Shown here: piece after piece, positions 1 through 61,191 of the stretch
Layout: each line of letters begins with the position of its first letter
How positions within the stretch are numbered: the first letter of the stretch is position 1
NCBI RefSeq assembly: GCF_053078305.1
Contig: NZ_CP166879.1
DNA length: 64,000 bases
Direction: 5' to 3' (one strand)
The notes under the pieces: model-generated
The model's input: the letters and a program-made list of their open reading frames with translations, nothing else
Database searches by the model: none
What the model was told of the DNA's origin: nothing
Translations under genes and position numbers: made by a program

Positions 1-1924
<1,924 letters not shown>

Positions 1925-1966
1925 TTATAGCACAGTGGTGGTGACTTGACCACCGTGCGCGTAGTG

Positions 1967-3268: not shown

Positions 3269-3271
3269 CGC

Positions 3272-3991: not shown

Positions 3992-4119
3992 AACATTCAC
4001 GGTAGATATAAAAACGTCACAATACACCGCGCTGTTTTTACTTACTATCAATCGTTTCTAAACAAGTTTTCATCAGGTATTCTACTGATGACTTGTTATG
4101 GAAGTGTTAAGGTAAAAAG

Positions 4120-4455
4120 ATGGGGCTGGTAATCAAAGCCGCGCTCGGTGCGCTGGTAGTGCTGTTGATTGGTGTTTTAGCAAAAACGAAAAATTATTAT
4201 ATCGCCGGGCTGATTCCACTTTTCCCGACCTTTGCGCTCATCGCGCATTATATTGTTGCCAGCGAACGTGGCATCGAAGCCTTGCGTGCAACCATCATTT
4301 TTAGCATGTGGTCGATTATTCCCTATTTTGTTTACCTGGTGTCACTGTGGTATTTCACCGGAATGATGCGCTTACCCGCTGCTTTTGTTGGTTCTGTTGC
4401 GTGTTGGGGGATAAGCGCATGGGTGTTGATTATATGCTGGATAAAGCTGCATTAA
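4120..4455 (+). CDS. ydgC: Inner membrane protein YdgC (GlpM family)
   Basis: 111-aa hydrophobic ORF between rstA and folM, matching K-12 gene order. Confidence 0.8.
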   Translation: MGLVIKAALGALVVLLIGVLAKTKNYYIAGLIPLFPTFALIAHYIVASERGIEALRATIIFSMWSIIPYFVYLVSLWYFTGMMRLPAAFVGSVACWGISAWVLIICWIKLH

Positions 4456-5174: not shown

Positions 5175-5210
5175 CGTTATCTCCTTTACTATCCAACGAT
5201 GGGATGAACG

Positions 5211-33446: not shown

Positions 33447-34721
33447 TTACCCCGCCTTGTTATGGGGCATGGTTGGGGCAAACTCGCTTAGCTGTGTATT
33501 TAACAGCGTTACCTGTGCATTATTATTTTCTGACATCCATTTTCCGTACACCTGAAACACCATTTGCGCATCGGCATGCCCCATCTGGTTTGCTATGAAT
33601 GCAGGATTAGCACCAGCTGTTAGCGACCAGCAGGCATAAGTATGTCTCGACTGATATGATTTTCGGTGGCGGAGTCCTGCTCGTTTTATTGCTGCGTCCC
33701 ACATCTGTCTTATTGAGTCAACAGTAAAATGGTCACCATAATTTTTTACTCTCGCTGACACTTCAGGTTGAAAAACAAAGGTGCATTTTTGTTTTTCTGT
33801 TCTGCCATACTCTCTGAGGTGAACATCAATGATATGCTCTTTGCTCAGTCTCGTTAGTGTCATCTGATTCTGGAGGGCCTCGATTGCTGGCTTAATAAGG
33901 TGAATTACACGATTAGTCCCCGCCTGTGTTTTTGGTACCGTAAAATGGTCTTTTGCTAAATTTCTCCTGATCATCATTGTTCCATTTTTCAGATCTATGT
34001 CCTCCCATCCAAGTGCACACAACTCACCAGGGCGAACGCCAGTATAAACAGAAACACACCACAAATTTTTGGCTTGCTGATTTCTGCACGCATCTATAAG
34101 GCGGATAAATTCCTCCCGCGAAAGAGGATCTGGAATGGTTCTTGATTCCTTTAATGGCGATATCCCCTTAAACGGATTATCTGCCAGGTAGCTGTTATCA
34201 ACACCAAACTGGAACACGGCGTTAAGATTTGTCATGTAATTATTTACGGTAACAGCCGATCTCCCGGGTTGTGTAACAATATAGTTACTTTTGGGGATCT
34301 GGTATCCAGTCAGTAACTCTTTACGAACCTCCAGTAATTTTTCTTTATTAATCGATGAGGCAAGATTTTTTTCACCGATTATGCTCAGGATATTTTTGAT
34401 GACGGCACGGTATGTATTGAGTGAACTTCTGGCAACTTCGGCCTCTTTTAGTGCCAGAAATTTTTCGGCCAGTTCACCTATAGTCAAATTTTGTCTGGCT
34501 TCCCCAAATTTTTCCAGATTGTGGGAGTAGGGGAACTGTTTTGCGTAGTCAAAAATCCCCGTTTTTATTGCGTAACAAACAGAAGCGCGTAGTTCACCAG
34601 CGATGCGTCTGTTTTTTACTGTGTCAGGGACACCGAGGTTTTCCCTGACTCTTACGCCTTTATAAACAAACCAGATGCGTAATGTCCCCCCGTGTTTTTC
34701 TACGCCTGTCGGATATTTCAT
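33447..34721 (-). CDS. int: Phage integrase (tyrosine recombinase)
   Basis: 424-aa ORF with C-terminal catalytic R...H-x-x-R...Y region (RHTYACWSLTAG...HADAQMVFQVYGKW); adjacent to the disrupted ydfJ. Confidence 0.9.
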   Translation of the reverse strand: MKYPTGVEKHGGTLRIWFVYKGVRVRENLGVPDTVKNRRIAGELRASVCYAIKTGIFDYAKQFPYSHNLEKFGEARQNLTIGELAEKFLALKEAEVARSSLNTYRAVIKNILSIIGEKNLASSINKEKLLEVRKELLTGYQIPKSNYIVTQPGRSAVTVNNYMTNLNAVFQFGVDNSYLADNPFKGISPLKESRTIPDPLSREEFIRLIDACRNQQAKNLWCVSVYTGVRPGELCALGWEDIDLKNGTMMIRRNLAKDHFTVPKTQAGTNRVIHLIKPAIEALQNQMTLTRLSKEHIIDVHLREYGRTEKQKCTFVFQPEVSARVKNYGDHFTVDSIRQMWDAAIKRAGLRHRKSYQSRHTYACWSLTAGANPAFIANQMGHADAQMVFQVYGKWMSENNNAQVTLLNTQLSEFAPTMPHNKAG

Positions 34722-38631: not shown

Positions 38632-38794
38632 AATGGCAGCCTCTTGGTTGAGTATTAATAACTCACCACCAAGGTTTTCCACGACCATAAGGGTGGTGAG
38701 ACGTACAGGGGTGGAAATACCGGTCAACCAAGAATCCGGCCAGCCTTGCGGCTGCCCTGCACGCCCCACCATAATCTGAATGTGGCTGTGCATT

Positions 38795-38823
38795 ACGCAT
38801 AAAAAAACCGCCTGAGCGCGGTT
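38795..38823 (-). terminator. Weak intrinsic terminator between the DicF-like RNA and the Rha-like gene
   Basis: Minus-strand AACCGCGCTCAGGCGG followed by TTTTTTT; stem only 4-5 bp. Confidence 0.3.
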
Positions 38824-39119
38824 ATGCGCTTGATTGAATTCCGGGTTTCCACGCCCGGCACCCGCTTTATGAGGTGCAGATGAACTATAATTCCACCCGT
38901 TCTGGTTTTCAATAGCTACATTCAACATTTTCTCTTACCCTTCATCACCGAAGTGAACTTTGTTGATGCAGTGCCTGGTGCCTCCAGGTGACGTTAACCA
39001 GTTAACAATTAACGCCGGAATACAGAAGTATGCCCGTTACGCCCCGTAAAAGACCACTTTACGGTTTTAACTGTTCCGCGTGCGCTTAGCCGCATTCACC
39101 GCATCACAAAATTCACTTT

Positions 39120-39177
39120 AAAAAGGGTGGCAGAGCAGTCACGGAGTAGAACTGATGCCACCAAAGACTACACATGG
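39120..39177 (-). ncRNA. dicF: DicF-like small RNA
   Basis: Minus strand reads ...GGTGGCATCAGTTCTACTCCGTGACTGCTCTGCCACCCTTTTT, near-identical to the 3' two-thirds of K-12 DicF including its terminator hairpin; 5' segment diverges. Confidence 0.55.
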
Positions 39178-46094: not shown

Positions 46095-46385
46095 CCTGGC
46101 CTGAAGCATTAACAACGGTAGGAATTGCGATGGCGGTGGCGCTGGTGGTGTATTCGATTTGCCGCTGGGGATAAAAACGGTTTGCGGGAAAAGGAGAGTT
46201 AAGTAGAATTGCAGCGGGTGCTTGAGGCTATCTGTCTCAGGCATGAACACCAAAAGGCAGATAGAGAAAAGCCCCAGTTAACATTACGCGTCCGGCAAGA
46301 CGCTTAACATTAATCTGAGGCTCAATCTGTGAACGGCAAATCTAGGTTAGCCTCTTACGCGCCGAAAGGCAAGGAGAAGCAGGCT

Positions 46386-46541
46386 ATGAAGCAGCAAAAG
46401 GCGATGTTAGTCGCCCTGATCGTCATCTGTATTACCGTCATTGTGACGGCACTGGTAACGAGGAAAGACCTCTGCGAGGTACGAATCCGAACCGGCCAGA
46501 CGGAGGTCGCTGTCTTCACAGCTTACGAACCTGAGGAGTAA
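46386..46541 (+). CDS. hokD: Hok/Gef-family type I toxin (HokD-like)
   Basis: Translation MKQQKAMLVALIVICITVIVTALVTRKDLCEVRIRTGQTEVAVFTAYEPEE; upstream in-frame extension corresponds to the overlapping mok frame. Confidence 0.85.
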   Translation: MKQQKAMLVALIVICITVIVTALVTRKDLCEVRIRTGQTEVAVFTAYEPEE

Positions 46542-49165: not shown

Positions 49166-49525
49166 ATGCTCATAGATTTGGTTTTACCTTACCCGCCGAC
49201 GGTGAACACTTACTGGCGACGCCGTGGCAGCACATATTTTGTATCAAAAGCAGGGGAGCGTTATCGCCGGGCAGTGGCACTTATTGTTCGCCAGCAGCGG
49301 CTGAAATTAAGCCTGTCCGGACGGCTGGCAATAAAAATTATTGCAGAGCCACCGGATAAGCGTCGTCGTGACCTGGACAATATTCTGAAAGCACCGCTGG
49401 ATGCGCTGACGCATGCGGGAGTGCTCATTGATGACGAGCAGTTTGATGAAATCAATATTGTACGTGGTCAGCTTGTTCCTGGTGGTCGGTTGGGTGTGAA
49501 GATTTACAAAATTGAGAGTGAGTGA
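49166..49525 (+). CDS. rusA: Holliday junction resolvase RusA
   Basis: 119-aa ORF MLIDLVLPYPPTVNTYW...RRRDLDNILKAPLDAL matching RusA. Confidence 0.85.
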   Translation: MLIDLVLPYPPTVNTYWRRRGSTYFVSKAGERYRRAVALIVRQQRLKLSLSGRLAIKIIAEPPDKRRRDLDNILKAPLDALTHAGVLIDDEQFDEINIVRGQLVPGGRLGVKIYKIESE

Positions 49526-50094
49526 GCGTAAATATGATATATCCGGAAATTACAGGCAAAAGCGGCGAACATTTACGCCTGAACACGCTGGAAGCAGTCT
49601 GGATCCAGGGGAAATTACGGATGTGGGGGCGGTGGTCGTATATCGGTGGGGGTAAATCCGGAAATATGTTTAACCGGTTACTGGTTTCGAAGAAGCTGAC
49701 GAAAACAGCAGTTAATGAGGTTTTACGCAGAATGAAGAAATCCGGGCTGGAAAAACCGGAACTTGAGGCATTTTTTCGGGATATGACCAGAGGGAAGCAG
49801 AAGAGCTGGTTGTCACATTGTACAGACACAGAGGCGTTGATTATTGATCGCGTTATCAGTGAGGTGCTTGGGGAATATCCCGGGCTAATCAATATTCTCC
49901 GGCAAAGGTACGAAGGACGGGGAATGAGCAAACTGAAAATGGCCGAAAGGTTAAATGCAGATCATCCTGAGTGGACGTTGGTTACGTGCAGACGCCGAAT
50001 TGATCAGTGGTTGGGGATATCTGAATTTATGTTACATGCCCCCATGCGTATGGCTTTTGTTACAGAGAAAAAAATGTTGCAAACTGATCAATAA
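49522..50094 (+). CDS. Putative late-gene antiterminator (Q-like)
   Basis: 190-aa ORF between rusA and the terminators/tRNAs; assignment by position and loose resemblance to QuuD-type Q proteins. Confidence 0.45.
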   Translation: MSVNMIYPEITGKSGEHLRLNTLEAVWIQGKLRMWGRWSYIGGGKSGNMFNRLLVSKKLTKTAVNEVLRRMKKSGLEKPELEAFFRDMTRGKQKSWLSHCTDTEALIIDRVISEVLGEYPGLINILRQRYEGRGMSKLKMAERLNADHPEWTLVTCRRRIDQWLGISEFMLHAPMRMAFVTEKKMLQTDQ

Positions 50095-50658: not shown

Positions 50659-51717
50659 ATGCTTAATACTGTAAAAATATCCAGTTGTGAGTTAATCAAC
50701 GCCGACTGCCTGGCATTTATCCGGTCGTTACCCGAAAATTCTGTTGACCTGATAGTCACGGACCCGCCGTACTTTAAAGTGAAGCCTGAGGGCTGGGATA
50801 ACCAGTGGAAGGGCGACGATGATTACCTGAAGTGGCTGGACCAGTGTCTTGCGCAGTTCTGGCGGGTGCTGAAACCTGCCGGAAGTCTTTACCTGTTCTG
50901 TGGCCATCGCCTGGCATCTGATATCGAAATCATGATGCGTGAACGCTTCAGTGTGCTGAACCATATTATCTGGGCAAAGCCGTCCGGACGCTGGAACGGG
51001 TGCAACAAGGAAAGCCTGAGGGCGTATTTCCCCGCCACAGAGCGCATTCTGTTCGCGGAACATTATCAGGGGCCGTATCGTCCGAAAGATGCCGGGTATG
51101 AGGCGAAGGGCAGGGCACTGAAACAGCATGTGATGGCCCCGCTGATTGCTTACTTTCGTGATGCGCGTGCTGCCCTGGGGATAACGGCAAAACAGATTGT
51201 GGATGCCACAGGAAAGAAAAACATGGTGTCGCACTGGTTCAGTGCCAGTCAGTGGCAGCTACCGAACGAAAGCGATTATCTGAAATTACAGGCGCTGTTT
51301 GCCCGGGTGGCAGAAGAGAAGCATCAGCGCGGTGAACTGGAAAAGCCCCACCACCAGCTGCTGGAGACGTATACTTCACTGAACCGGCAGTATGCGGAAC
51401 TGCAGAGTGAATATAAGCATCTGCGGCGGTATTTTGGCGTGACGGCGCAGGTGCCGTACACCGATGTGTGGACGCATAAACCGGTGCAGTACTATCCCGG
51501 GAAACATCCGTGCGAAAAACCGGCAGAAATGCTGCAGCAGATAATCAGCGCGAGCAGTCGTCCGGGGGACCTGGTTGCAGATTTTTTCATGGGGTCGGGT
51601 TCGACAGTCAAAGCCGCGATGGCGCTGGGGCGTCGTGCAACTGGCGTTGAGCTGGAGACTGAACGTTTTGAGCAGACGGTCAGGGAAGTACAGGATTTAG
51701 CCAGTCAGAACGGATGA
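50659..51717 (+). CDS. DNA methyltransferase (N6-adenine/N4-cytosine, DPPY type)
   Basis: N-terminal LIVTDPPYF and C-terminal FFMGSGST motifs; 352 aa with a long insert between them. Confidence 0.8.
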   Translation: MLNTVKISSCELINADCLAFIRSLPENSVDLIVTDPPYFKVKPEGWDNQWKGDDDYLKWLDQCLAQFWRVLKPAGSLYLFCGHRLASDIEIMMRERFSVLNHIIWAKPSGRWNGCNKESLRAYFPATERILFAEHYQGPYRPKDAGYEAKGRALKQHVMAPLIAYFRDARAALGITAKQIVDATGKKNMVSHWFSASQWQLPNESDYLKLQALFARVAEEKHQRGELEKPHHQLLETYTSLNRQYAELQSEYKHLRRYFGVTAQVPYTDVWTHKPVQYYPGKHPCEKPAEMLQQIISASSRPGDLVADFFMGSGSTVKAAMALGRRATGVELETERFEQTVREVQDLASQNG

Positions 51718-51757: not shown

Positions 51758-51833
51758 GGCCCTTTAGCTCAGTGGTGAGAGCGAGCGACTCATAATCGCC
51801 AGGTCGCTGGTTCAAATCCAGCAAGGGCCACCA
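51758..51833 (+). tRNA. tRNA with CAU anticodon, ileX-like (tRNA-Ile2 lysidine type)
   Basis: Cloverleaf GGCCCTTTAGCTCAGTGGTGAGAGC...ACTCATAATCG...GGTTCAAATCC...AAGGGCCACCA; close to E. coli ileX. Confidence 0.75.
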
Positions 51834-51842
51834 TATCACATA

Positions 51843-51919
51843 CCGCCATTAGCTCATCGGGACAGAGCGTCAGCCTTCGAAGCTGGTTGCGCGGGGTTCG
51901 AGTCCTCGATGGCGGTCCA
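51843..51919 (+). tRNA. tRNA-Arg (anticodon TCG)
   Basis: Acceptor stem CCGCCAT/ATGGCGG, anticodon loop CTTCGAA, T-loop GGTTCGAGTCC, 3' CCA. Confidence 0.7.
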
Positions 51920-51932
51920 TTATCGGTATTCA

Positions 51933-52009
51933 GCGTTGTTAGCTCAGCCGGACAGAGCAATTGCCTTCTAAGCAATCGGTCACTGGTTCGAATCCAGTAC
52001 AACGCGCCA
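51933..52009 (+). tRNA. tRNA-Arg (anticodon TCT)
   Basis: Acceptor stem GCGTTGT/ACAACGC, anticodon loop CTTCTAA, T-loop GGTTCGAATCC, 3' CCA. Confidence 0.75.
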
Positions 52010-52178
52010 TACTTATTTTTCTGGCTCGCTTTTGCGGGCCTTTTTTGTATCCGCGCCACGCCCGGCGCATATCAACCACAGAGCCTTTCGGGGGTGAGCT
52101 TACGGAGTGGTCAGTGTGACTTTCTCTGTGGGCAGATCGCTCCCGGGCGTTGGCTCACCCACCCAAAGGAACGTCACG

Positions 52179-52610
52179 ATGTTTGGTATTTTCAAAAAGA
52201 AAACCCGCAGAGCAGCAACGGAAATTAAAAAGTTTGAGAAACGCGATCTGGCACAGGCGGTTATTAATGCTGCCTACCTGGTAGCCTATGCAGATGGTGA
52301 ATGTGAGGCTTCAGAGAAAGCGAAGATCGAACAGGTATTACGTAACCAGCCTGCGTTGTCCGCGTTTACGTCAGAAATTAATGCCATCAGTGCCACGATC
52401 ACAGGTCAGCTTGACACCAACTTTAAAATTGGTCGTCGAGCGGCGTTGCGTGAAATTGAAGATGTGAAACACGATACGCGTGAAGCGGAAGATGTGCTGG
52501 ATGTGGCGGTGGCTATTGCTGAAGCAGATGGTGAAATTGAGCCGGAAGAGCGTAAGGTTCTGGAAGAGATTGCAGGTGTTCTTGGCCTGCGACTGGAGAA
52601 CCACCTGTGA
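52179..52610 (+). CDS. TerB-domain protein
   Basis: Translation MFGIFKKKTRRAATEIKKFEKRDLAQAVINAAYLVAYADGECEASEKAKIEQVL...AIAEADGEIEPEERKVLEEIAGVLGL; AAAGGA SD upstream. Confidence 0.6.
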   Translation: MFGIFKKKTRRAATEIKKFEKRDLAQAVINAAYLVAYADGECEASEKAKIEQVLRNQPALSAFTSEINAISATITGQLDTNFKIGRRAALREIEDVKHDTREAEDVLDVAVAIAEADGEIEPEERKVLEEIAGVLGLRLENHL

Positions 52611-52771: not shown

Positions 52772-53019
52772 CCGGGTATCAGTCATGCCCCGAAAATTTT
52801 AAATGTCTCACAATTCAGACGGTTGACAGTTGTCTGTTTTGCGGGGAGTTTGTTAAAAGAAACTGGCATGGTGAATCCCCCTGAGCGGAGGGGCGACTGG
52901 TGCATTAGGTGTTATCTTTGATACCTAGGAAAGTGAACGCGCGGGTTTGGTTGCACCGGGCTGAACTCACCGGGAGGCACCCGGCATCATGCGCATGATG
53001 ATACAGATACGCGGCTTTA

Positions 53020-53046
53020 GCCCCTCTCCGGAGGGGCTTTTATATG
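53020..53046 (+). terminator. Intrinsic terminator
   Basis: GCCCCTC-TCCG-GAGGGGC hairpin followed by TTTTATATG. Confidence 0.6.
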
Positions 53047-53072
53047 AATTTTGTAAGATATGAGTAAACTAA

Positions 53073-53408: not shown

Positions 53409-53661
53409 TTAGCCTCCTTATTTATGCTGTGCTGGTGATGTTCTGAAAAGTATAAATGATAATTTTGAATGTAAACCATAGAGCAGAATTATTTTTCTGA
53501 TGTTGTTTATTTAAATACAGGTTTTTTATATCCCGTCTTGTAGTTTATCCATGCATACCTGCTTTATGATGAGGTTTTCATTTAAGGTATGGTTTTGTGT
53601 TTTTTTCTGTATTTCATGTCAGGTATTTTAAAGAATTGTTTTTAATATGGTGGAAAGAACC

Positions 53662-55629
53662 ATGGCATTTAAACACTACGATGTGGTCAGGGCGGCGTCG
53701 CCGTCAGACCTTGCGGAGCGACTGACTCAAAAACTGAAGGAGGGGTGGCAGCCATTTGGCAGTCCTGTCGCCATCACGCCTTATACCCTGATGCAGGCCA
53801 TTGCGGCGGAAGGTGATGTCACCACACCTGTGCTGGTGAAGCCGTCGGATGGAGAAGGCACAGTTATCAGCACCACCAGCGAACCGGAGTATTACTTTGT
53901 TGTTGTTCTGGCGGGGCAGTCAAACAGCATGGCATATGGTGAAGGCCTTCCGCTGCCGGAGACATATGACCGTCCGGACCCGCGTATTAAGCAGCTGGCG
54001 CGCCGCAGTACGGTGACACCGGGCGGTGCCGCCTGTAAGTATAACGACATTATTCCGGCGGACCATTGTCTGCATGATGTGCAGGACATGAGCCGTCTTA
54101 ACCATCCGAAAGCGAACCTGTCAAAGGGGCAGTACGGAACCGTGGGGCAGGGGCTGCATATCGGCAAAAAACTGCTGCCGTTTATACCGGCGAATGCGGG
54201 CATTCTGCTGGTTCCGTGCTGCCGTGGTGCTTCGGCATTCACAACGGGTGCAGACGGCACATACAGCGAATCAGCCGGTGCATCGGAAAATTCACTGCGC
54301 TGGGGTGTGGGTAAGCCGCTGTATCAGGATTTGGTGAGCCGGACTAAAGCCGCACTGGCGAAGAACCCGAAAAACCGTCTGCTTGCGGTGGTGTGGATGC
54401 AGGGAGAAGGTGATGCGGCAGTGGGGACGCATGCGCAGCATCCGGGGCTGTTTAGTGCGATGGTGAATCAGTTCAGAACGGAGCTTGCCGGTCTGGCATC
54501 ACAGAGCACAGGAGGCAGCGCATCAGCGGTACCGTGGATTTGCGGGGACACAACGTATTTCTGGAAGCAGCGTCATGCGGAAGGGTATGCATCAGTATAC
54601 GGAGGGTATAAGGGTAAGGAGTCGCAGAACATTTTCTTTGTACCGTTAATGACGGATGAGAATGGTGCGAATGTGCAGACCAATGACCCGGCAGAAGACC
54701 CGGACCTGGAAGCCGTCGGTTATTACGGTTCAAAGTGGCGTAATGACCAGAAGACCTGGACATCTGTGGACAGGGCAAGCCATTTCAGTTCATGGGCACG
54801 CCGTGGGATTATTTCCGACCGTCTGGCAACGGCGATTCTGGTGCATGCCGGGAGAACTGCTGAATTCATTACCGGAAAACAGCCTGATACGGTGAAGCCC
54901 ACCGGACCTTCCGGTGAAGGCCCGGAGAGAGAGCCGGAAGCCCCGGTCAGTAACCGAACCCTGATGAGTCTGCTGGCGTCCGGTGAAGACCTGGCATCAC
55001 AGGGCTGGCGCTATTATCACAAACCGGCGAGCGGAGACAATGTTGATAAAAACATCGCTGAGGCTGTGGTCAGTGATGAGGGTGCCACCGGTGGTAAGGC
55101 CCTGCAACTGAACAAACCGGAAAGCCACATCTGGTTTCTGGAGCATGATGCCGCCGGGCAGGGGGCAGAGTTGCTGAAGAAAGGCGGACGTGTGAGCGTA
55201 CGGTTTAAGGTGCCGGGCTCACTGGTGCCGAATCAGTTTGCCCTGGGTATTTACTGGCAGTTGTCGTCCCTGCCGGAGGGAGTGACGCTGGCAGAGGAAG
55301 GCAACGACATGCTGATGTCCTTCTTCCTGCAGACGGATGCGACGAACCTGAACGCGATGTACCACAAGAAGCAGAATGCGAAGCTGGATACGTTCGGGGT
55401 CTTTGATAACGGATGGCACACACTGGCTTTTGAGTTTGCCGGAAACAACAGCATTCAGGTGACGCCGGTACTGGATGAGAAACGGGGTACACCGTTCACA
55501 CTGGTGAAATCTCCGGCATCAGGGGCGGCGGACAAACTGCAACTGACAGGCATATCAAAGGCGGCGACATATACGTTGCTGATTGACAGTGTGAAGGTGG
55601 AAGTGAACAACGCGGACGCCGCGGCATGA
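53662..55629 (+). CDS. Prophage O-acetyl sialic acid esterase NanS-p-like protein (DUF1737 + SGNH/DUF303)
   Basis: About 655-aa ORF; N-terminal MAFKHYDVVRAASPSDLAERL... segment and VVVLAGQSNSMAYGEG esterase motif; located after the tRNAs and before the lysis genes as in Stx phages. Start could be the ATG at 53647. Confidence 0.7.
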   Translation: MAFKHYDVVRAASPSDLAERLTQKLKEGWQPFGSPVAITPYTLMQAIAAEGDVTTPVLVKPSDGEGTVISTTSEPEYYFVVVLAGQSNSMAYGEGLPLPETYDRPDPRIKQLARRSTVTPGGAACKYNDIIPADHCLHDVQDMSRLNHPKANLSKGQYGTVGQGLHIGKKLLPFIPANAGILLVPCCRGASAFTTGADGTYSESAGASENSLRWGVGKPLYQDLVSRTKAALAKNPKNRLLAVVWMQGEGDAAVGTHAQHPGLFSAMVNQFRTELAGLASQSTGGSASAVPWICGDTTYFWKQRHAEGYASVYGGYKGKESQNIFFVPLMTDENGANVQTNDPAEDPDLEAVGYYGSKWRNDQKTWTSVDRASHFSSWARRGIISDRLATAILVHAGRTAEFITGKQPDTVKPTGPSGEGPEREPEAPVSNRTLMSLLASGEDLASQGWRYYHKPASGDNVDKNIAEAVVSDEGATGGKALQLNKPESHIWFLEHDAAGQGAELLKKGGRVSVRFKVPGSLVPNQFALGIYWQLSSLPEGVTLAEEGNDMLMSFFLQTDATNLNAMYHKKQNAKLDTFGVFDNGWHTLAFEFAGNNSIQVTPVLDEKRGTPFTLVKSPASGAADKLQLTGISKAATYTLLIDSVKVEVNNADAAA

Positions 55630-55768
55630 TAAAAAGAGCCGCCAGCGGCAGGAATGGAAGCTGGCGGAGGTAATCCCAATGGAGAATGTAAAGAAAAGAT
55701 GCTTTCGTACATCGGTTGTTTTTTTAAATGAAAACAGTTCTCATTGTCAACCATAACGGTAAGAAATT

Positions 55769-55948
55769 ATGACATTTATTCATCAGGTGATGCTGTACTT
55801 CTGTACGGCGGTCTGTGTGCTGTATCTTCTTTCGGGTGGGTACAGGGCCGTGCGCGATTTCTGGCGCAGGCAGATTGATAAAAGGGCCGCAGAGAAAATC
55901 AGCGCCAGTCAGTCAGCCGGAAGCAAACCCGAAGAGCCGCTCATTTAG
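55769..55948 (+). CDS. Possible small membrane protein
   Basis: 59-codon ORF MTFIHQVMLYFCTAVCVLYLLSGG...; weak SD. Confidence 0.3.
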   Translation: MTFIHQVMLYFCTAVCVLYLLSGGYRAVRDFWRRQIDKRAAEKISASQSAGSKPEEPLI

Positions 55949-55988
55949 CTGCAACTTTCTTAACAACCATTTTCAACGAGAAAATCCC

Positions 55989-56234
55989 ATGTCAGAAATC
56001 ACATCCCTGGTCACTGCAGAGGCAGTGAAGGAAGTCCTGCGCTCTGAAGAAGTCCTGAGCGCACTGAAACAGAAACTCCGCCAGAACCTTGAGTCGCGTC
56101 TTGATGCAGAAGTGGATGCCATTCTGGATGAACTGCTGGGCGCACCGGCTGTTCCGGAGCCGGAAGGCATTGCGGGTGACGGGAGTGCTTCAGATGGCGG
56201 TGAACCCACACCCGACAGCGACATGATGATGTAA
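55989..56234 (+). CDS. Hypothetical acidic protein
   Basis: 81-aa [25 protein letters not shown]... upstream of the holin. Confidence 0.45.
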
Positions 56235-56310
56235 GCATGCGCAAGGGACCATCGGTGTGTGCCGGTGGTCTTTATATTGTTGTGAGCTTCCGGATTGCGG
56301 GAGACGGGGT

Positions 56311-56526
56311 ATGTACCAGATGGAAAAAATCACAACAGGTGTGTCATACACCACGTCAGCGGTGGGAACGGGCTACTGGTTCCTGCAGTTGCTGGACAGG
56401 GTTTCCCCGTCTCAGTGGGCGGCAATAGGCGTGCTGGGGAGTCTGCTGTTTGGTCTGCTGACATACCTGACGAACCTGTATTTTAAAATCAGAGAAGACC
56501 GGCGTAAGGCGGCCCGGGGAGAGTAA
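56311..56526 (+). CDS. Class II holin / pinholin (phage 21 S-like)
   Basis: Translation [71 protein letters not shown]; dual-start arrangement (ATG 56311 and 56320). Confidence 0.8.
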
Positions 56527-56530
56527 AGCG

Positions 56531-57517
56531 ATGAATAACAAATATGAACTGGTTGTAAAAGGGATAAATCATTACCCGGATAAGATAACTGTTACGGTGG
56601 CACTGGAAATTGCCGGTCAGCCGTCGTTGTTGTCGCCATATGTGGCGATTAGTCTTGACCGTACTGAAGGTGCCACGCTGGAATTTTACGAAGCTGAGGC
56701 GAAAAAACAGGCGAAGCAGTTTTTCATGGATGCGGCTCTCGGATTACGCGAAGGGACTGCGCGATGTGGCTTTCAGAATATTTCTTCATGGACAATGCCG
56801 GAAAAAATCGCCACTTACCCGGGGCGTGAAAAGGTCAACGAACCGGTAAAAAATGCGCCTGATGATGTGCAGAGCGCGATGGTTAATGTGGAGCTTCCGG
56901 CACGTGTGACACCAGGAGTGAAAGTCGGGGAAGATTCTCGTCTTGTGCTGACCAAAAGAATAGGCAGCGTGGTCAGTGTTCATATTGATCATGAGGAAGT
57001 TCTGTCGGTTATGTACAGGGAAGACTACGATCCGAAAACAACATTCAGCGACTATGAAGCGAGAGCAAAGGAGTATGCCTTGTCGGTATTTGCTGCGGTA
57101 CGTGGCGAGGACTGTCGTAAAAACGGGCATGAAAGTGATTTTACTGTGCCTGTGTCGGACAAAAACCAGGAACGGGAGTGTAACCGGCCATCCTTTGTTG
57201 TATCCGGTGATGACGGGAAAATCACCATATCAGAAAATGGAAAAGTAACACCGCCATCGCACCAGCACAGTGAGACGCTCATTGAATTTGCCATTGATTA
57301 CCTGAAGAACAATAAAAAACAGGGGCTGATGAAGCGCATTGGTCGCTGCATGGGATATCTGCAGCTGGCGGCAGAGATTGAAGCACTTGCCAGTGGTGCA
57401 GACAGGGATGCTGCGGTGCGGGAGGCTCTTCTTTGTGATTTCAATACGCCACCCTTTAAGAAAGAGCCTGATGGCTGGATCCAGCCGGGGCTGACTTATC
57501 TTAAAGTGCGTATTTAG
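56531..57517 (+). CDS. Hypothetical 328-aa protein inserted between holin and endolysin
   Basis: Uninterrupted ORF starting 5 nt after the holin stop; no signal peptide and no motif recognised. Confidence 0.6.
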   Translation: MNNKYELVVKGINHYPDKITVTVALEIAGQPSLLSPYVAISLDRTEGATLEFYEAEAKKQAKQFFMDAALGLREGTARCGFQNISSWTMPEKIATYPGREKVNEPVKNAPDDVQSAMVNVELPARVTPGVKVGEDSRLVLTKRIGSVVSVHIDHEEVLSVMYREDYDPKTTFSDYEARAKEYALSVFAAVRGEDCRKNGHESDFTVPVSDKNQERECNRPSFVVSGDDGKITISENGKVTPPSHQHSETLIEFAIDYLKNNKKQGLMKRIGRCMGYLQLAAEIEALASGADRDAAVREALLCDFNTPPFKKEPDGWIQPGLTYLKVRI

Positions 57518-57553
57518 TGGGCCAGGGACAGCGGCTGAATATTTAATATATAC

Positions 57554-58087
57554 ATGAACGCAAAAATCAAATACGGCCTGTCAGCTGCTGTTCTGGCGCT
57601 GATTGCCGCAGGTGCGCCTGCGCCTGAAATCCTCGACCAGTTTCTTGACGAAAAAGAAGGTAACCACAGCACGGCATACCGTGATGGTGCGGGTATCTGG
57701 ACCATCTGCCGTGGTGCCACCCGGGTGGATGGTAAGCCTGTCGTCCCTGGCATGAAGCTGTCGAAGGAAAAATGCGACCAGGTTAACGCCATTGAACGTG
57801 ATAAGGCGCTGGCATGGGTGGCGAAAAACATCAAAGTGCCACTGACTGAACCCCAGAAAGCGGGGATCGCGTCATTCTGTCCTTACAACATTGGCCCAGG
57901 TAAGTGTTTCCCGTCGACGTTTTATAAACGAATTAATGCAGGCGATCGCAGGGGAGCGTGTGAGGCGATTCGCTGGTGGATTAAGGACGGTGGCAGAGAC
58001 TGCCGTATTCGCTCAAATAACTGTTACGGTCAGGTATCCCGGAGAGACCAGGAGAGCGCGCTGGCGTGCTGGGAAATCGACAGATAA
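57554..58087 (+). CDS. SAR endolysin (T4-lysozyme-type, phage 21 R-like)
   Basis: N-terminal signal-anchor-release segment LSAAVLALIAAGA and catalytic E...D...T pattern (EGNHSTAYRDGAGIWTICRG). Confidence 0.85.
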   Translation: MNAKIKYGLSAAVLALIAAGAPAPEILDQFLDEKEGNHSTAYRDGAGIWTICRGATRVDGKPVVPGMKLSKEKCDQVNAIERDKALAWVAKNIKVPLTEPQKAGIASFCPYNIGPGKCFPSTFYKRINAGDRRGACEAIRWWIKDGGRDCRIRSNNCYGQVSRRDQESALACWEIDR

Positions 58088-58243
58088 GCAGAATATTTTG
58101 CTGAAAAATGAGGTTTGCTTACATGGACGGATAACACGAAATCCTGCGAACTGGCAAAATGTAAGTGAATAAAAGTAAAAACCCCGTTTGTTGGCAGCAA
58201 GCGGGGTTTTGTGTTTCTGACCTTGGATAAGGCAAGGGAGAAC

Positions 58244-58426
58244 ATGGAAAAGTATAAACGAATTCTGTTGAGGTTGACTATGAAAAACGGCCTTGAACTG
58301 AAAGCGCCAGTAACTGATGACATCAGCAGAGCACTGGCTTTTGCTATTAAGTGGGTGGCGGTCGGTATCGCTGTGTCTCCGATGCTGTATGGGCTGGCAA
58401 AACTGGTCATTGCGTTGAAATCGTGA
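58244..58426 (+). CDS. Hypothetical small membrane protein
   Basis: 60-aa ORF MEKYKRILLRLTMKNG... with C-terminal hydrophobic helix; GGGAGA SD upstream. Confidence 0.4.
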   Translation: MEKYKRILLRLTMKNGLELKAPVTDDISRALAFAIKWVAVGIAVSPMLYGLAKLVIALKS

Positions 58427-58440
58427 AGGGAGGATTAAAC

Positions 58441-58572
58441 ATGTCAGACAAACTCATAATGCTGGCGAAGATCCTCTGTGTAATCGTCGGCATTTCATTT
58501 TCACTAATGCTGGTTGCTATTTGCTTTTCCACTGCCTGGCGCGTCTTAACTCTGTCAGGGCTGGTGGGGTGA
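58441..58572 (+). CDS. Hypothetical small membrane protein
   Basis: 43-aa ORF MSDKLIMLAKILCVIVGISFSLMLVAICFSTAWRVLTLSGLVG; GGGAGG SD upstream. Confidence 0.45.
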   Translation: MSDKLIMLAKILCVIVGISFSLMLVAICFSTAWRVLTLSGLVG

Positions 58573-58579
58573 CAGAAAC

Positions 58580-59515
58580 ATGAAATGTGTACTGTATTCC
58601 GGTGACTGTCTTGATGTTATGCCTTCATTACTACCGGGAAGTGTTGACCTGGTTTTATGTGACCCGCCGTATGGAACCATTAAAGGGCTTACACTCCGTA
58701 CATGGGATAAGAGTACGACAGCATGGGACGATGCCTTAAATCCTGAAGATATTTTCACACAGTGCGAACGACTGCTGAGGGTGGGCGGTGTGCTGGTCAT
58801 GTTCAGCCAGGAGCCGCATACAAGCACGATGATTACTCTGGCGGATAAAAACCTGCCGTTTTTATATCGTATGGTGTGGAAGAAGGAGCATTTCCCCAAC
58901 CCGCTTTCAGTAAAAAAAGCACCTGTATCTTTATTCGAGGATATCGTTGTTTTCCGGAAAAAATATGACAGTGAGAAAAACCACCCGCTGAGGGAGTACG
59001 CCCGAAATATCCTTTCTTTCATTGGCCACAGGACAGACAAGGAAGTTAACAAAACACTGGGGCACTGTCGGGCAGAGCATTTTTTTCGCGTGAACACAGT
59101 CCAGTTTTCCCTCTGCTCACAGGATACGTACAACGAGTTAATTAAACGCTTTGGTATCGACCGTATGCCGGGTTTCATGACATATGAAGAAATGTGCAAA
59201 GTGAATTCCGGTTACGGCACTGTGGTTTTTAATCTCCCTCAGGGGAAAAAATACCGCGCAAATATTCTGGAGTACGCGCGGGAGCGGGAGCGATGGCATC
59301 CGACCCAGAAGCCAGTTGCATTACTGGAAGAGCTGATTCAGACGTACAGCAACCCTGGCGACAGGGTACTGGATTTTACTATGGGGAGTGGTTCAACAGG
59401 TGTTGCATGTATCCGGACGGGGAGACGGTTTACCGGAATAGAAAAGGATGACCGGTATTTCGCTGTTGCAAAAAAACGTCTGGAAAAAGAAAACAGTGAA
59501 ATGGTGGTGATATGA
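58580..59515 (+). CDS. DNA methyltransferase (DPPY type), second copy, inserted between endolysin and Rz
   Basis: N-terminal LVLCDPPYG and C-terminal FTMGSGSTG motifs; stop overlaps the Rz start. Confidence 0.8.
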
Positions 59516-59979
59516 ACCGTGTTCTGTGTGTGGTGATTATTGTCCTGCTGGTGGCCTGTGGTGCGCTTAGTCTGGGGCTGAATCATTACCGCGATAACGC
59601 CATCACCTACAAAGCGCAGCGCGATAAAAAAGCCAGAGAGCTGGAGCTGGCAAACGCAACCATTACTGATATGCAGCAGCGCCAGCGCGATGTTGCTGCG
59701 CTCGATGCTAAATACTCGAGGGAATTAGCCGATGCGAGAGCTGAAAATGAAACTCTGCGTGCTGATGTTGCCGCTGGTCGTAAGCGCCTGCGGGTTAAAG
59801 CCACCTGTCCAGGCTCCGTGCGTGAAGCCCCCACCACCTCCGGCGTGGATAATGCAACCGGCCCCCGACTGGCAGACACCGCTGAACGGGATTATTTCAT
59901 CCTCAGAGAACGGTTGATGACAATGCAGAAGCAGCTGGAAGGGGCGAAGGAATATATCCGCACTCAGTGTATTAACTAG
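59512..59979 (+). CDS. Spanin inner-membrane subunit Rz
   Basis: 155-aa ORF with N-terminal TM helix and coiled-coil periplasmic domain; contains Rz1 in the +1 frame. Confidence 0.75.
59732..59917 (+). CDS. Spanin outer-membrane lipoprotein Rz1 (embedded in Rz)
   Basis: Lipobox LVVSAC followed by the proline-rich [27 protein letters not shown] segment, as in lambda Rz1. Confidence 0.65.
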
Positions 59980-60002
59980 TATTTTTGTTATCCGGAGAAT
60001 GC

Positions 60003-60227
60003 ATGAAGAAATTACTGGTAACCGTAAAGCCTTTTCAGGGAACAATTCCGTTCCGTATTTTGCAGTGTGGTCGTGTTCTTGTTGAAGGTTCGTTCAGTGG
60101 TAAATGTACGCAATTACACTCCCGGACCTTTCAGGTGAATGCCACGAATGAAGAGCTAACCGTTGAGTGTACGATGAATGCAGCTAAATGCCGCATGGTA
60201 TCGGCTGCATTACAGCCAGTGTGTTGA
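60003..60227 (+). CDS. Hypothetical Cys-containing small protein
   Basis: 74-aa ORF MKKLLVTVKPFQG...; GGAG SD upstream. Confidence 0.4.
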   Translation: MKKLLVTVKPFQGTIPFRILQCGRVLVEGSFSGKCTQLHSRTFQVNATNEELTVECTMNAAKCRMVSAALQPVC

Positions 60228-60469
60228 GCGACCTTATTATCCATGCGCGGTATTGTCGCCGTATTCCTGCATTAACAGAGACCGCAGCCCGACAGGGAGA
60301 CTCCTCTGCGCGAGTGTGCGGGGATAATCAAAAACGATACACACCGGGGTTTACCGCGTTAACGGAGCGCGGCGTTGTCCCCTCATGGTCGCTGGTCCGG
60401 TGCGATGGTGGAAGAAACTGGATTTTGTTGCAACTGATAATCATTATCATTTTCTCGGGTCCTTTCCGG

Positions 60470-60660
60470 CATATGGACCCGTTACGGGGCGGCGACCTCG
60501 CGGATTTTCACTATTTATGAAAATTTTCCGGGATCCATGTCCGGTTTCTCTGCAAGTTAACCATATGAAAAATATAAAAACATGCTTTCCATGAACCGGA
60601 CATGCGCAAAAAATAGACACTAAAACCGGACATGACCGGTTTTGTTGTGATTGTGAGGTG
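60470..60660 (+). other. cos site (cosN with lambda-identical 12-nt cohesive-end sequence, plus cosB-like R sites)
   Basis: GGGCGGCGACCT at 60487-60498 followed by CGCGGATTTTCACTATTTATGAAAATTTTCCGG, near-identical to the lambda genome ends; three CCGGACATG-type motifs at 60536, 60596 and 60626. Confidence 0.8.
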
Positions 60661-60681
60661 AGAGTTTTTGCGAGGTGAGGA

Positions 60682-61191
60682 GTGGCTACGCAGACTGAAG
60701 TTGCCAGGCATTTAAGTCTGACCGATCGCCAGCTTCGCAGATTGCAGAAATTGCCGGGTGCCCCGATATCGAATAAGCGAGGGCAACTGGATCTGGATGC
60801 CTGGCGCGATTTTTACATATCGTATCTGAGAAGAAGTAAAAACGATGTGCCTGATGGCGATAGCGAAGACGACTATGAGGAGAAATTGCTTATTGCCAGA
60901 TGGGAACTGACAGCAGAACAGGCTGTTACACAGCAGTTAAAAAATGAGGTGTCAAAAGGAAAACTTATTGACACCGGGTTCTGTATTTTTGCCCTCAGCA
61001 AGCTGGCAATGGCGTTATCCAGTACGCTTGATTCCATCCCTTTATCCATGCAGCGACAGTTTCCTGATTTAACACCGCGCCATCTTGACCATCTGAAAAC
61101 CCTTATTGCGAAGGGGGCAAATCAGTGTGCGCGGGCGGGGGATAAATTACCGGATTTACTCGATGAATATATCAGAGCAACAACTGAATAA
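60682..61191 (+). CDS. Terminase small subunit (lambda Nu1-like)
   Basis: GTG start with GAGGTGAGGA SD; C-terminal half aligns with lambda Nu1. Confidence 0.8.
   Translation: MATQTEVARHLSLTDRQLRRLQKLPGAPISNKRGQLDLDAWRDFYISYLRRSKNDVPDGDSEDDYEEKLLIARWELTAEQAVTQQLKNEVSKGKLIDTGFCIFALSKLAMALSSTLDSIPLSMQRQFPDLTPRHLDHLKTLIAKGANQCARAGDKLPDLLDEYIRATTE

What the first reader, a model, noticed from the sequence alone, without database searches (positions are those of the whole stretch)
58211..59515. Methyltransferase and two small membrane ORFs inserted between endolysin and Rz/Rz1
A second lysis-cassette junction is also interrupted: two short ORFs with hydrophobic helices and strong SD sequences (58244-58426, 58441-58572) and a 311-aa DPPY-type DNA methyltransferase lie between the endolysin and the spanin genes. 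No restriction endonuclease partner is visible, so it is likely an orphan methylase, but the coupled small membrane proteins are unexplained.
Basis: partly seen in the sequence, partly recalled or inferred. Interest (0 to 1): 0.65.

Follow-up and report, generated by a model that had tools for sequence, protein, structure and literature searches.

The report
Late-operon orphan methylase in prophage lysis cassette
A lambda-like E. coli prophage carries three independent accessory genes between its cell-wall-degrading enzyme and its outer-membrane-disrupting genes: two small membrane proteins common in E. coli prophages, and a rare solitary DNA methylase that probably marks new phage DNA against host restriction enzymes; this is real but fairly ordinary phage mosaicism.

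Summary
ORF1 (58244-58426, 60 aa), ORF2 (58441-58572, 43 aa) and a 311-aa DPPY methyltransferase (58580-59515) lie between the SAR endolysin (57554-58087) and Rz/Rz1 (59512-59979 / 59732-59917).

The supposed coupling to the small ORFs is not supported. The ORF1-ORF2 pair occurs in 1032 of 5426 complete E. coli genomes; the methylase occurs in 11. The methylase also occurs after Ant+ORF2, after ORF1 alone, or directly after the endolysin in Salmonella-like prophages.

Both small ORFs are under purifying selection (pN/pS 0.16 and 0.27) and belong to PHROG families of unknown function. In the loci recovered through ORF2, it always sits directly 5' of Rz or of methylase-Rz.

Relatives at 59-100% identity occupy the same endolysin-to-Rz slot in several enterobacterial prophage lineages. 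The genes are tightly chained, have no promoter of their own and follow a strong hairpin. I therefore infer expression only from the Q-dependent late operon, to methylate progeny DNA.

The same prophage has a second, M.EcoGII-like methylase just after Q. Verdict: new member of a known kind, modest interest.

The parts
57554..58087 (+). SAR endolysin (R21-like lysozyme); left border of the cargo slot
   Evidence: 177-aa ORF. phrog_7 endolysin, E 2.8e-62. The N-terminal weakly hydrophobic Ala/Gly-rich segment at 9-27 is typical of SAR domains by established knowledge of R21-type endolysins.
58085..58173 (+). About 89 nt of conserved spacer following the endolysin stop; shared by ORF1-type and Ant-type cassettes
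   Evidence: blastn of 58085-58246 against 84 loci: positions 1-89/98 match in Ant-type loci and 1-162 match in ORF1-type loci.
58178..58210 (.). 15-bp terminator-like hairpin immediately upstream of the ORF1 ribosome-binding site
   Evidence: Terminator scan. MFE is -21.1 kcal/mol on the + strand and -14.3 on the - strand. It is kept, with pair-preserving substitutions, in L010, L088 and L193. Ant-type cassettes have a different hairpin at the same place.
58244..58426 (+). ORF1: 60-aa protein with a basic N-terminal half and a weakly hydrophobic C-terminal helix; function unknown
   Evidence: ORF. phrog_1115, E 1.4e-42, with no Pfam, NCBIfam or PADLOC match. pN/pS 0.16. Homologues occur in E. 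coli, E. marmotae and Salmonella prophages. It is frameshifted in 3 of 35 loci.
58441..58572 (+). ORF2: 43-aa single-pass membrane protein; function unknown; constant 5' neighbour of Rz in this phage lineage
   Evidence: ORF. phrog_4906, E 2.2e-24. It is 43 aa in 84 of 85 loci with pN/pS 0.27. All named homologues are from E. coli. It is always directly upstream of Rz or of methylase-Rz, whichever gene lies upstream of it. TM segment 11-29.
58580..59515 (+). 311-aa orphan beta-class (DPPY ... FxGxG) DNA amino-methyltransferase, probably N6-adenine
58573..59508 (+). Extent of the methylase cassette relative to methylase-free relatives
   Evidence: Junction comparison. The window reads GGGGTGA|CAGAAACATG...GGTGGT|GATATGAAC. 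L010 and L016 read GGGGTGA|GGGG|GATATGAAC. L089, which has a different ORF2 variant, shares the same left junction.
59512..59979 (+). Rz (i-spanin); right border of the slot
   Evidence: phrog_13 Rz-like spanin, E 2.3e-76. N-terminal TM segment 4-22.
59732..59917 (+). Rz1 (o-spanin) embedded in the +1 frame of Rz
   Evidence: ORF. Lipoprotein signal [15 protein letters not shown] and a proline-rich mature part.
49522..50094 (+). Q-like antiterminator that should drive the late operon containing all of the above
   Evidence: phrog_753 anti-termination protein Q-like, E 1.8e-74.
50659..51717 (+). Second beta-class methyltransferase of the same prophage, M.EcoGII-like; first gene after Q
   Evidence: phrog_6025/67/6952. 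98.6% identical to the methylase of phage 1720a-02, which PMC5778455 cites as very similar to M.EcoGII. Only 26% identical to the 311-aa enzyme.

Best explanation
The endolysin-to-Rz interval of this lambdoid (Stx-phage-type, here stx-negative) prophage is a cargo slot. It holds three separable accessory genes.

(1) ORF1 and (2) ORF2 are genuine, conserved small membrane-associated proteins. They are widespread in E. coli prophages and independent of the methylase.

(3) The 311-aa gene is a rare solitary beta-class DNA amino-methyltransferase cassette of about 0.94 kb. It sits precisely between the ORF2 stop codon and the Rz start codon.

Shown:
- the anatomy;
- the independent distributions of the three genes;
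- purifying selection on both small ORFs;
- an intact catalytic and SAM-binding motif set and a beta-class fold;
- absence of any endonuclease;
- recurrence of the same methylase clade (59-100% identity) in the same slot in several enterobacterial prophage lineages.

Inferred:
- The four genes are chained: the ORF2 SD abuts the ORF1 stop, there is a 7-nt ORF2-methylase gap, and the methylase and Rz overlap in ATGA. No + strand promoter is predicted, and a strong hairpin lies upstream. They are therefore transcribed and translated only as part of the Q-antiterminated late operon.
- The methylase is thus silent in the lysogen and made late in lytic growth. It then methylates replicated phage DNA before packaging, most likely at N6 of adenine in a still unknown sequence context. 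Progeny would escape restriction in the next host (anti-restriction self-protection).
- It adds to, or complements, the M.EcoGII-like methylase encoded just after Q in the same operon.
- For ORF1 and ORF2 my best guess, at low confidence, is that they are non-essential late inner-membrane proteins. They would tune pinholin/SAR-endolysin/spanin-driven lysis rather than act in the lysogen.
For: Anatomy and motifs.

No endonuclease: and the neighbourhoods.

Independence of the small ORFs and the methylase:
- ORF1-ORF2 in 1032 genomes versus the methylase in 11 of 5426.
- Architectures in 85 sequences (84 loci plus the window): R-Ant-ORF2-Rz about 45, R-ORF1-ORF2-Rz about 28, R-ORF1-ORF2-MTase-Rz 6, R-Ant-ORF2-MTase-Rz 1.
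- ORF1 is frameshifted where the methylase is kept.

Real coding genes: pN/pS 0.16 and 0.27 in frame against >=0.85 out of frame, with fixed lengths, and PHROG families.

Same slot in other lineages:
- Salmonella prophages L085-87, and L213/214 (origin not given; their endolysin and Rz are 84-90% identical to those of L085): lysozyme-MTase-Rz, methylase 59% identical while R is only 33-35% and Rz 47-50% identical.
- L088 and L193: lysozyme-ORF1-like-MTase-Rz.
- L188: KilAC-antirepressor-ORF2-MTase-Rz.
- DETEC-S792: same order at 78% nucleotide identity.
- STEC308: Q-HTH-MTase-holin.

Late-only expression:
- No + strand promoter-like site in 55600-60800, and a strong hairpin at 58178-58210.
- Gene spacing.
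- Precedent: prophage methylases M.EcoGI and M.EcoGII are silent in the lysogen (PMC5778455).

Adenine rather than cytosine:
- The DPPY motif, by established knowledge of amino-methyltransferase motif IV.
- PDB sequence hits to adenine enzymes at E 1e-18 to 1e-9, against 1e-5 for N4-cytosine enzymes.

Foreign cargo: GC is 0.46-0.48 for ORF1, ORF2 and the methylase, against 0.54 for R and Rz.
Against: - No expression or methylation data exist. The promoter scan is a crude sigma-70 consensus scan and cannot exclude a weak or non-canonical promoter.
- The target sequence and even the target base are unknown.
- If the M.EcoGII-like enzyme in the same operon really methylates adenines non-specifically, a second adenine methylase looks redundant. 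That leaves room for a different base, substrate or role.
- The methylase lacks an obvious SD of its own, so its translation level is uncertain.
- For ORF1 and ORF2 there is no evidence of a lysis role beyond position and predicted late expression.
- The alternative occupant of the same slot, Ant, is not a lysis protein, so position alone is weak evidence.
- A local similarity of the ORF1 helix to pinholin TMD2 (p about 0.005) failed at profile level (hhalign probability 1.3%). It is also not conserved in divergent ORF1 homologues.
Confidence: 0.68

Rival explanations
1. ORF1, ORF2 and the methylase form one functional module. Examples would be a membrane-anchored or membrane-regulated methylase, or a new exclusion or defence system in which the small membrane proteins are effectors.
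For: They are adjacent, co-oriented and translationally chained in the window. An ORF1-like gene directly abuts the methylase in L088 and L193, and ORF2 abuts it in the window, L004, L089 and L188.
Against: - The distributions are independent: 1032 genomes against 11.
- The methylase occurs without either small ORF in L085-87 and L213-214.
- ORF1 is frameshifted in strains that keep the methylase.
- Neither small ORF matches PADLOC.
- Adjacency is explained by all of them using the same insertion slot.
Confidence: 0.05
2. The methylase is a lysogenic-conversion gene. It would be expressed in the lysogen and reprogramme host gene expression epigenetically, or protect the host chromosome.
For: Prophage-borne methylases can change host transcriptomes, for example the Stx-phage PstI-type system discussed in PMC3893438. 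The carriers are mostly STEC isolates from humans.
Against: - There is no promoter-like site upstream on the + strand, and a 15-bp hairpin lies upstream of the gene chain.
- The gene has no SD and depends on the upstream ORF, and it overlaps Rz.
- In relatives it always sits inside the late operon.
- M.EcoGI and M.EcoGII set a precedent of silent prophage methylases.
Confidence: 0.1
3. ORF1 is the toxin of a type I toxin-antitoxin-like pair. A roughly 75-nt antisense RNA would start at a minus-strand promoter inside the first ORF1 codons, cover its SD and start codon, and end at the 58178-58210 hairpin acting as a minus-strand terminator.
For: - ORF1 is a small protein with a hydrophobic C-terminal helix.
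- The only promoter-like site in 55600-60800 is on the minus strand at 58280-58251 (TAGTCA-18-TATACT, 9 of 12 matches).
- On the minus strand the hairpin is followed by TTTTTACTTTTATT.
- The hairpin plus the ORF1 5' end is the most conserved part of the module in the divergent L088 and L193.
Against: - The promoter match is weak, and one site is fewer than the 5.1 expected by chance.
- Conservation of the 5' end is explained by the conserved N-terminal peptide KYKRILLRL, with synonymous changes in L193.
- Rfam gives no match, only a sub-threshold terminator-like hit.
- ORF1 is co-translated in a late operon chain, unlike free-standing type I toxins.
- Frameshifted copies persist without obvious consequence.
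Confidence: 0.06
4. The methylase is needed for the phage's own DNA metabolism. An example is methylation-dependent recognition or cleavage of the packaging site, as with Dam and pac in P1. It would not serve anti-restriction.
For: It is expressed with the late genes and lies 1.2 kb upstream of the terminase genes at 60682 and 61106.
Against: Near-identical late regions lack the gene in about a thousand genomes. It also occurs with at least three different terminase types: Nu1/GpA, Terminase_2 and Terminase_6N. It therefore cannot be an integral part of any one packaging system.
Confidence: 0.03

Closest known systems
M.EcoGI / M.EcoGII (prophage-encoded, silent, beta-class adenine methyltransferases of E. 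coli O104:H4; PMC5778455)
   Same: Beta-class motif order (DPPY, TRD, FxGxG). Both are solitary, carried on a lambdoid prophage and predicted to be made only on induction. A close relative of that family sits in the same late operon here (50659-51717).
   Different: Only 26% identity to the M.EcoGII-like copy, with a different central TRD. It is 311 aa rather than 349-352 aa, and it lies between the endolysin and Rz rather than right after Q. Its specificity is unknown; non-specificity was not tested.
Characterised beta-class N6-adenine methyltransferases: M.MboIIA, M.RsrI, M.BceJIV, CcrM, M1.HpyAVI
   Different: 17-25% identity. Several of those belong to R-M systems (M.MboIIA, M.RsrI) and CcrM is a cell-cycle regulator. 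The TRD here (about residues 85-235) is specific to a phage-borne clade also found in marine and gut viral contigs.
R-ant-Rz arrangement of Stx phages (933W / Sp5 type)
   Same: The same slot between the SAR endolysin and Rz carries non-lysis cargo. The first about 89 nt after R and the ORF2 homologue (48-49 aa form) are shared.
   Different: Here ORF1 replaces Ant, and an extra methylase cassette follows ORF2.
Late-expressed phage orphan methylases used for anti-restriction (e.g. P1 Dam, T4 Dam)
   Same: The proposed logic is the same: methylate progeny DNA late in infection with no cognate endonuclease. This rests on established knowledge and is not tested here.
   Different: Those are alpha-class Dam-type enzymes with known GATC specificity and are not inside a lysis cassette.
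Small membrane lysis modulators (S21-71 antiholin, P1 LydB, Mu gp25 releasin)
   Same: Small membrane proteins encoded next to a pinholin/SAR-endolysin system. This is only a functional analogy for ORF1 and ORF2.
   Different: No sequence relationship was found. There are no PHROG lysis-category hits, and ORF1 against the pinholin gives hhalign probability 1.3%.

Membership tests
Beta-class N6/N4 DNA amino-methyltransferase (Pfam PF01555 N6_N4_Mtase) | Significant full-length match to the family profile | tested here: met
   PF01555, E 1.9e-32, residues 22-299, model positions 1-221 of 221; phrog_67, E 2.6e-70.
Beta-class N6/N4 DNA amino-methyltransferase (Pfam PF01555 N6_N4_Mtase) | Motif order IV (D/S-P-P-Y/F), then TRD, then motif I (FxGxG) | tested here: met
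   DPPY at residues 28-31; [10 protein letters not shown] at 265-274; HPTQKP at 240-245. All are invariant in the 17-sequence family alignment.
Beta-class N6/N4 DNA amino-methyltransferase (Pfam PF01555 N6_N4_Mtase) | Rossmann-like methyltransferase fold closest to solved beta-class enzymes | tested here: met
Beta-class N6/N4 DNA amino-methyltransferase (Pfam PF01555 N6_N4_Mtase) | Demonstrated SAM-dependent methylation of DNA; identity of the base (m6A or m4C) and of the motif | not testable with these tools
   DPPY and the better sequence scores to adenine enzymes only suggest m6A.
Orphan (solitary) methyltransferase | No restriction endonuclease gene adjacent to the methylase | tested here: met
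   Neighbours are ORF2 and Rz in the window. Only lysis, antirepressor or terminase genes flank it in relatives. PADLOC returns methyltransferase models only.
Orphan (solitary) methyltransferase | No cognate endonuclease elsewhere in the genome | not testable with these tools
   Only 64 kb of the host genome is available.
Type II restriction-modification system | Methylase paired with an endonuclease of the same specificity | tested here: not met
   No candidate endonuclease ORF was found within the late region 55.6-63 kb.
M.EcoGII family (non-specific adenine methylase) | Close sequence similarity to M.EcoGI/GII | tested here: not met
   The 311-aa protein is 26% identical to the prophage's own M.EcoGII-like protein. 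That 352-aa protein is the family member, 98.6% identical to the phage 1720a-02 methylase.
Holin / antiholin families (for ORF1 and ORF2) | Sequence or profile similarity to a known holin, antiholin or other lysis protein family | tested here: not met
   PHROG hits are only to 'unknown function' families, and there are no Pfam or NCBIfam hits. ORF1 profile against pinholin profile gives hhalign probability 1.3%. ORF2 against pinholin, Rz and the R N-terminus is not above shuffles.
Moron (autonomous promoter-gene-terminator unit) | Own promoter upstream and own terminator downstream of the inserted gene(s) | tested here: not met
   There is no + strand promoter-like site. The terminator-like hairpin is upstream, not downstream, of ORF1, and the genes are chained into Rz.
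Type I toxin-antitoxin | Small hydrophobic toxin ORF plus an overlapping antisense RNA with promoter and terminator | tested here: inconclusive
   A weak minus-strand promoter-like site (9 of 12) and a hairpin usable as a minus-strand terminator exist. There is no Rfam match and no expression data.

The most novel reading that the evidence does not exclude
ORF2, and perhaps ORF1, is an unrecognised accessory component of the pinholin / SAR-endolysin / spanin lysis pathway of Stx-type lambdoid phages. One form of this would be a small inner-membrane protein that tunes SAR-endolysin release or Rz function. It would be present in about a fifth of E. coli genomes yet never studied. Separately, the 311-aa methylase clade, with a TRD conserved from enterobacterial prophages to marine and gut viral contigs, may have an unusual specificity. 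A very short motif or a different base would explain why it is kept alongside an M.EcoGII-like non-specific adenine methylase.
Probability: 0.2. Interest if true: 0.6.

Novelty: new member of a known kind. Interest (0 to 1): 0.3.

Why it matters
- It shows that the endolysin-to-Rz junction of Stx-type prophages is a recombination slot where cargo is swapped without disturbing lysis-gene expression. The cargo includes antirepressors, small membrane proteins, a methylase and even ParDE.
- It identifies a methylase clade that habitually rides in the late or lysis operon of enterobacterial prophages. This matters for predicting which restriction barriers Stx-type phages can cross. It also matters for reading methylomes, because such genes will be invisible in uninduced lysogens.
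- It flags two very common but unstudied small proteins in a well-studied lysis cassette as cheap targets for deletion analysis.

None of this overturns current understanding.

Tried and rejected
1. Known RNAs in the R-ORF1 spacer. Rfam at gathering and at E<=1 gave nothing but a sub-threshold terminator-like rimP hit. The anti-sRNAs AgvB and AsxR map to the stx-moron site, not here.

2. ORF1 helix as a copy of pinholin TMD2. The Smith-Waterman score was 36 against a shuffle mean of 20 +/- 4 (p about 0.005). However, hhalign probability is 1.3%, and the W/G/S positions are not kept in divergent ORF1 homologues. Rejected.

3. ORF2 as a duplicated Rz N-terminal TMD. BLASTP E was 1.2 and shuffle p was 0.18. 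Rejected.

4. Defence-system membership. PADLOC gives only generic methyltransferase models, and nothing for the small ORFs, the 328-aa protein or the 74-aa protein.

5. Broad locus scans.
It was repeated with a TRD-only alignment.
- The genome-contig scan gave only 9 loci, because there is one genome per species.

6. Literature.
- Searches for a methylase inside a lysis cassette, or for the small ORFs, found no description.
- The Stx-phage comparative paper PMC8136144 mentions neither.

7. Inferring the methylation target. No characterised close homologue was found; the best phage isolate hit is 54% (vB_EcoM-ep3), where the gene sits next to the primase. The target remains unknown.
Full report
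**What is there**

The window from about 33.4 kb onward is a lambdoid prophage. It has an integrase at 33447-34721, O/P-like replication genes, RusA, and a Q-like antiterminator at 49522-50094.

Its late region has the layout typical of Stx phages, but a TerB-like gene (52107-52610) sits where stx usually lies. In order it contains:
- three tRNAs (51758-52006);
- STnc100 (52837-53049);
- a SASA esterase (53647-55629);
- DUF1378 and DUF826 ORFs;
- an S21-like pinholin (56320-56526);
- a 328-aa phrog_1085 protein (56531-57517);
- a SAR endolysin (57554-58087);
- the region of the finding;
- Rz/Rz1 (59512-59979 / 59732-59917);
- a 74-aa ORF;
- Nu1/GpA-type terminase genes.

**Check of the observation**

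- ORF1 (58244-58426, 60 aa) is preceded by AAGGGAG.
- ORF2 (58441-58572, 43 aa) is preceded by AGGGAGGA, which starts right after the ORF1 stop.
- The 311-aa ORF (58580-59515) starts 7 nt after the ORF2 stop. Its stop overlaps the Rz start (ATGA).
- ORF2 has a strongly hydrophobic segment at residues 11-29. ORF1 has a basic N-terminal half and a weaker C-terminal hydrophobic helix.

**The methyltransferase**

It is a complete beta-class amino-methyltransferase.
- PF01555 matches end to end with E 1.9e-32.
- DPPY (28-31), HPTQKP (240-245) and [10 protein letters not shown] (265-274) are present and invariant in the family alignment.
- By sequence, the best solved relatives are CcrM, M1.HpyAVI, M.BceJIV, M.RsrI and M.MboIIA, with E 1e-18 to 1e-9. 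N4-cytosine enzymes score 1e-5.
- DPPY and the scores favour N6-adenine, but neither the base nor the motif can be determined here.
- No endonuclease is nearby in the window or in any relative. PADLOC reports only generic methyltransferase models.

"Orphan" is therefore supported.

**Are the small ORFs real, and are they coupled to the methylase?**

They are real.
- Across 84 related loci plus the window, ORF2 is 43 aa in 84 of 85 and ORF1 is 60 aa in 31 of 35.
- pN/pS is 0.27 (ORF2) and 0.16 (ORF1) in frame, against 0.85-1.97 in the other frames.
- Both fall in PHROG families of unknown function. Neither has a Pfam, NCBIfam or PADLOC match.
- All named ORF2 homologues are from E. coli. ORF1 also occurs in E. 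marmotae and Salmonella prophages.

They are not coupled to the methylase.
- In 5426 complete E. coli genomes, the ORF1-ORF2 pair is present at >=80% coverage in 1032. The methylase is present in 11.
- In the 85 sequences found through ORF2 (84 loci plus the window), the architectures are:

| Architecture | Sequences |
|---|---|
| R-Ant-ORF2-Rz | about 45 |
| R-ORF1-ORF2-Rz | about 28 |
| R-ORF1-ORF2-MTase-Rz | 6 |
| R-Ant-ORF2-MTase-Rz | 1 |

- ORF2 is thus a constant 5' neighbour of Rz in this lineage. ORF1 and Ant are alternatives, and the methylase is a rare extra.
- ORF1 carries a 2-bp frameshift in strain 2015C-3121 and in two IMG/VR loci that keep the methylase.

**The cassette and its junctions**

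Comparison with methylase-free relatives (L010, L016) places the cassette at 58573-59508.
- The window reads GGGGTGA|CAGAAAC-ATG...GGTGGT|GATATGAAC.
- The relatives read GGGGTGA|GGGG|GATATGAAC.
- The same left junction occurs next to a different ORF2 variant in L089.
- GC is 0.46-0.48 for ORF1, ORF2 and the methylase, against 0.54 for R and Rz.

**The same methylase clade in the same slot elsewhere**

| Locus | Methylase identity | Arrangement |
|---|---|---|
| L085-87 (Salmonella); L213, L214 (origin not given; endolysin and Rz 84-90% identical to L085's) | 59% | holin-lysozyme-MTase-Rz, no small ORFs; their R is 33-35% and Rz 47-50% identical to the window's |
| L088, L193 | 67%, 59% | lysozyme-ORF1-like-MTase-Rz |
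| L188 | 77% | R-KilAC antirepressor-ORF2-MTase-Rz |
| DETEC-S792 | 78% (nucleotide) | the window's order |
| STEC308 | 67.6% (nucleotide) | Q-HTH-MTase-holin |
| vB_EcoM-ep3 | 54% | next to the primase |

In enterobacterial lambdoid prophages, then, this clade is a habitual passenger of the late or lysis operon. It has either persisted there or moved repeatedly between lysis cassettes.

Its central TRD region is conserved at 45-55% identity in many environmental viral contigs and in Vibrio, Pseudoalteromonas, Cellulophaga and Polaribacter phages.

**How it probably works**

The steps below are inferred, not shown.
- No + strand promoter-like site is found between 55.6 and 60.8 kb.
- A 15-bp hairpin with a U-rich tail (58178-58210, -21 kcal/mol) lies between R and ORF1. 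It is kept with pair-preserving changes in divergent relatives. In Ant-type cassettes it is replaced by a different hairpin at the same place.
- The four genes are chained for translational coupling.

I therefore expect ORF1, ORF2 and the methylase to be made only from Q-antiterminated late transcripts. The methylase would then modify replicated phage DNA shortly before packaging and protect progeny against restriction in the next host.

This mirrors M.EcoGI and M.EcoGII, prophage methylases that are silent in the lysogen (PMC5778455).

**A complicating observation**

The first gene after Q (50659-51717, 352 aa) is another beta-class methylase.
- It is 98.6% identical to the methylase of phage 1720a-02. 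The M.EcoGII paper cites that enzyme as very similar to M.EcoGII.
- It is only 26% identical to the 311-aa enzyme.
- The relatives 2015C-3121 and FHI_NMBU_10 also carry both.

If the first enzyme is non-specific for adenine, the benefit of the second is unclear. This is the main reason my confidence in "adenine, anti-restriction" is not higher.

**The small ORFs' function**

Nothing here establishes it.
- Predicted late-only expression argues against a role in the lysogen, such as exclusion or conversion.
- Their position, small size and membrane character make a modulatory role in pinholin/SAR-endolysin/spanin lysis the most economical guess. I rate it at about one in three.
- Ant in the same slot shows that position is weak evidence.
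- Two specific ideas were tested and failed: ORF1 as a pinholin-TMD2 mimic and ORF2 as an Rz-TMD duplicate.
- A type I toxin-antitoxin-like reading of ORF1 rests only on a weak promoter match and remains untested.

**Verdict**

The coupling to the small ORFs is not supported.

All three proteins already exist in public databases, as a generically annotated 'DNA-methyltransferase' or as 'hypothetical' proteins. The held literature does not describe the arrangement.

It is a new member of known kinds: a phage orphan methylase and lysis-cassette cargo. Interest is modest.

Noticed in passing
window 50659-51717 (+): A second beta-class DNA methyltransferase (352 aa) lies directly after Q and before the three tRNAs. 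It is 98.6% identical to the methylase of phage 1720a-02, which PMC5778455 cites as very similar to M.EcoGII. It is only 26% identical to the 311-aa enzyme. Relatives 2015C-3121 and FHI_NMBU_10 also carry both methylases.
   Followed up: partly
window 56531-57517 (+): A 328-aa protein (phrog_1085, unknown function) lies between the pinholin and the SAR endolysin. Its N-terminal about 75 residues match several other unknown PHROGs. A 95%-identical copy in FHI_NMBU_10 is annotated as a truncated DUF1327 pseudogene although the ORF is intact.
   Followed up: partly
window 58178-58210; also L010, L088, L193, and Ant-type loci such as L004 and L064: A strong hairpin lies right after a conserved 89-nt post-endolysin spacer. 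It is kept with pair-preserving substitutions in divergent relatives. Ant-type cassettes carry a different hairpin (AGGCACCGTAATGGTGCCTTT) at the same position. Its role inside an antiterminated operon is unexplained.
   Followed up: partly
window 58251-58280 (-) with 58165-58210 (-): A weak minus-strand promoter-like site inside the first ORF1 codons, together with the hairpin followed by a T-run on the minus strand, could give an antisense RNA of about 75 nt. That RNA would cover the ORF1 ribosome-binding site. There is no Rfam match and no expression data.
   Followed up: partly
L089 (GCA_043650595.1), about 1-5200: The cargo set is tandemly duplicated: R-Ant-ORF2-MTase-Rz/Rz1-ParD-ParE-Ant-ORF2-Rz/Rz1-74aa. 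A ParDE toxin-antitoxin pair is therefore also lodged in the lysis region.
   Followed up: no
L003 (E. coli 2015C-3121) 6155-6339; also two IMG/VR loci: ORF1 carries a 2-bp insertion (frameshift, 23-aa product) in several prophages that retain ORF2 and the methylase.
   Followed up: yes
L266 and L267 (GCA_000736735.1, two contigs); L005 and L006: One E. coli genome carries the complete holin-328aa-R-ORF1-ORF2-MTase-Rz-74aa region twice, in two different prophages. The methylase is identical in both.
   Followed up: no
window 52107-52610, 52837-53049, 51758-52006: The position that holds stx in Stx phages holds a TerB-like tellurite-resistance-family gene (phrog_632) here. It is followed by an STnc100 sRNA match and preceded by three tRNAs. 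The same layout is seen in strain FHI_NMBU_10.
   Followed up: partly
window 38689-39176 (-) and 46216-46391 (+): Rfam matches above gathering score in the early region of the prophage: C4 antisense RNA, isrK, DicF and sok.
   Followed up: no
window 60003-60227 (+): A 74-aa ORF (phrog_2571, unknown function) follows Rz. It is present in most methylase-bearing relatives and in some Ant-type loci. It has no signal peptide or TM segment.
   Followed up: no
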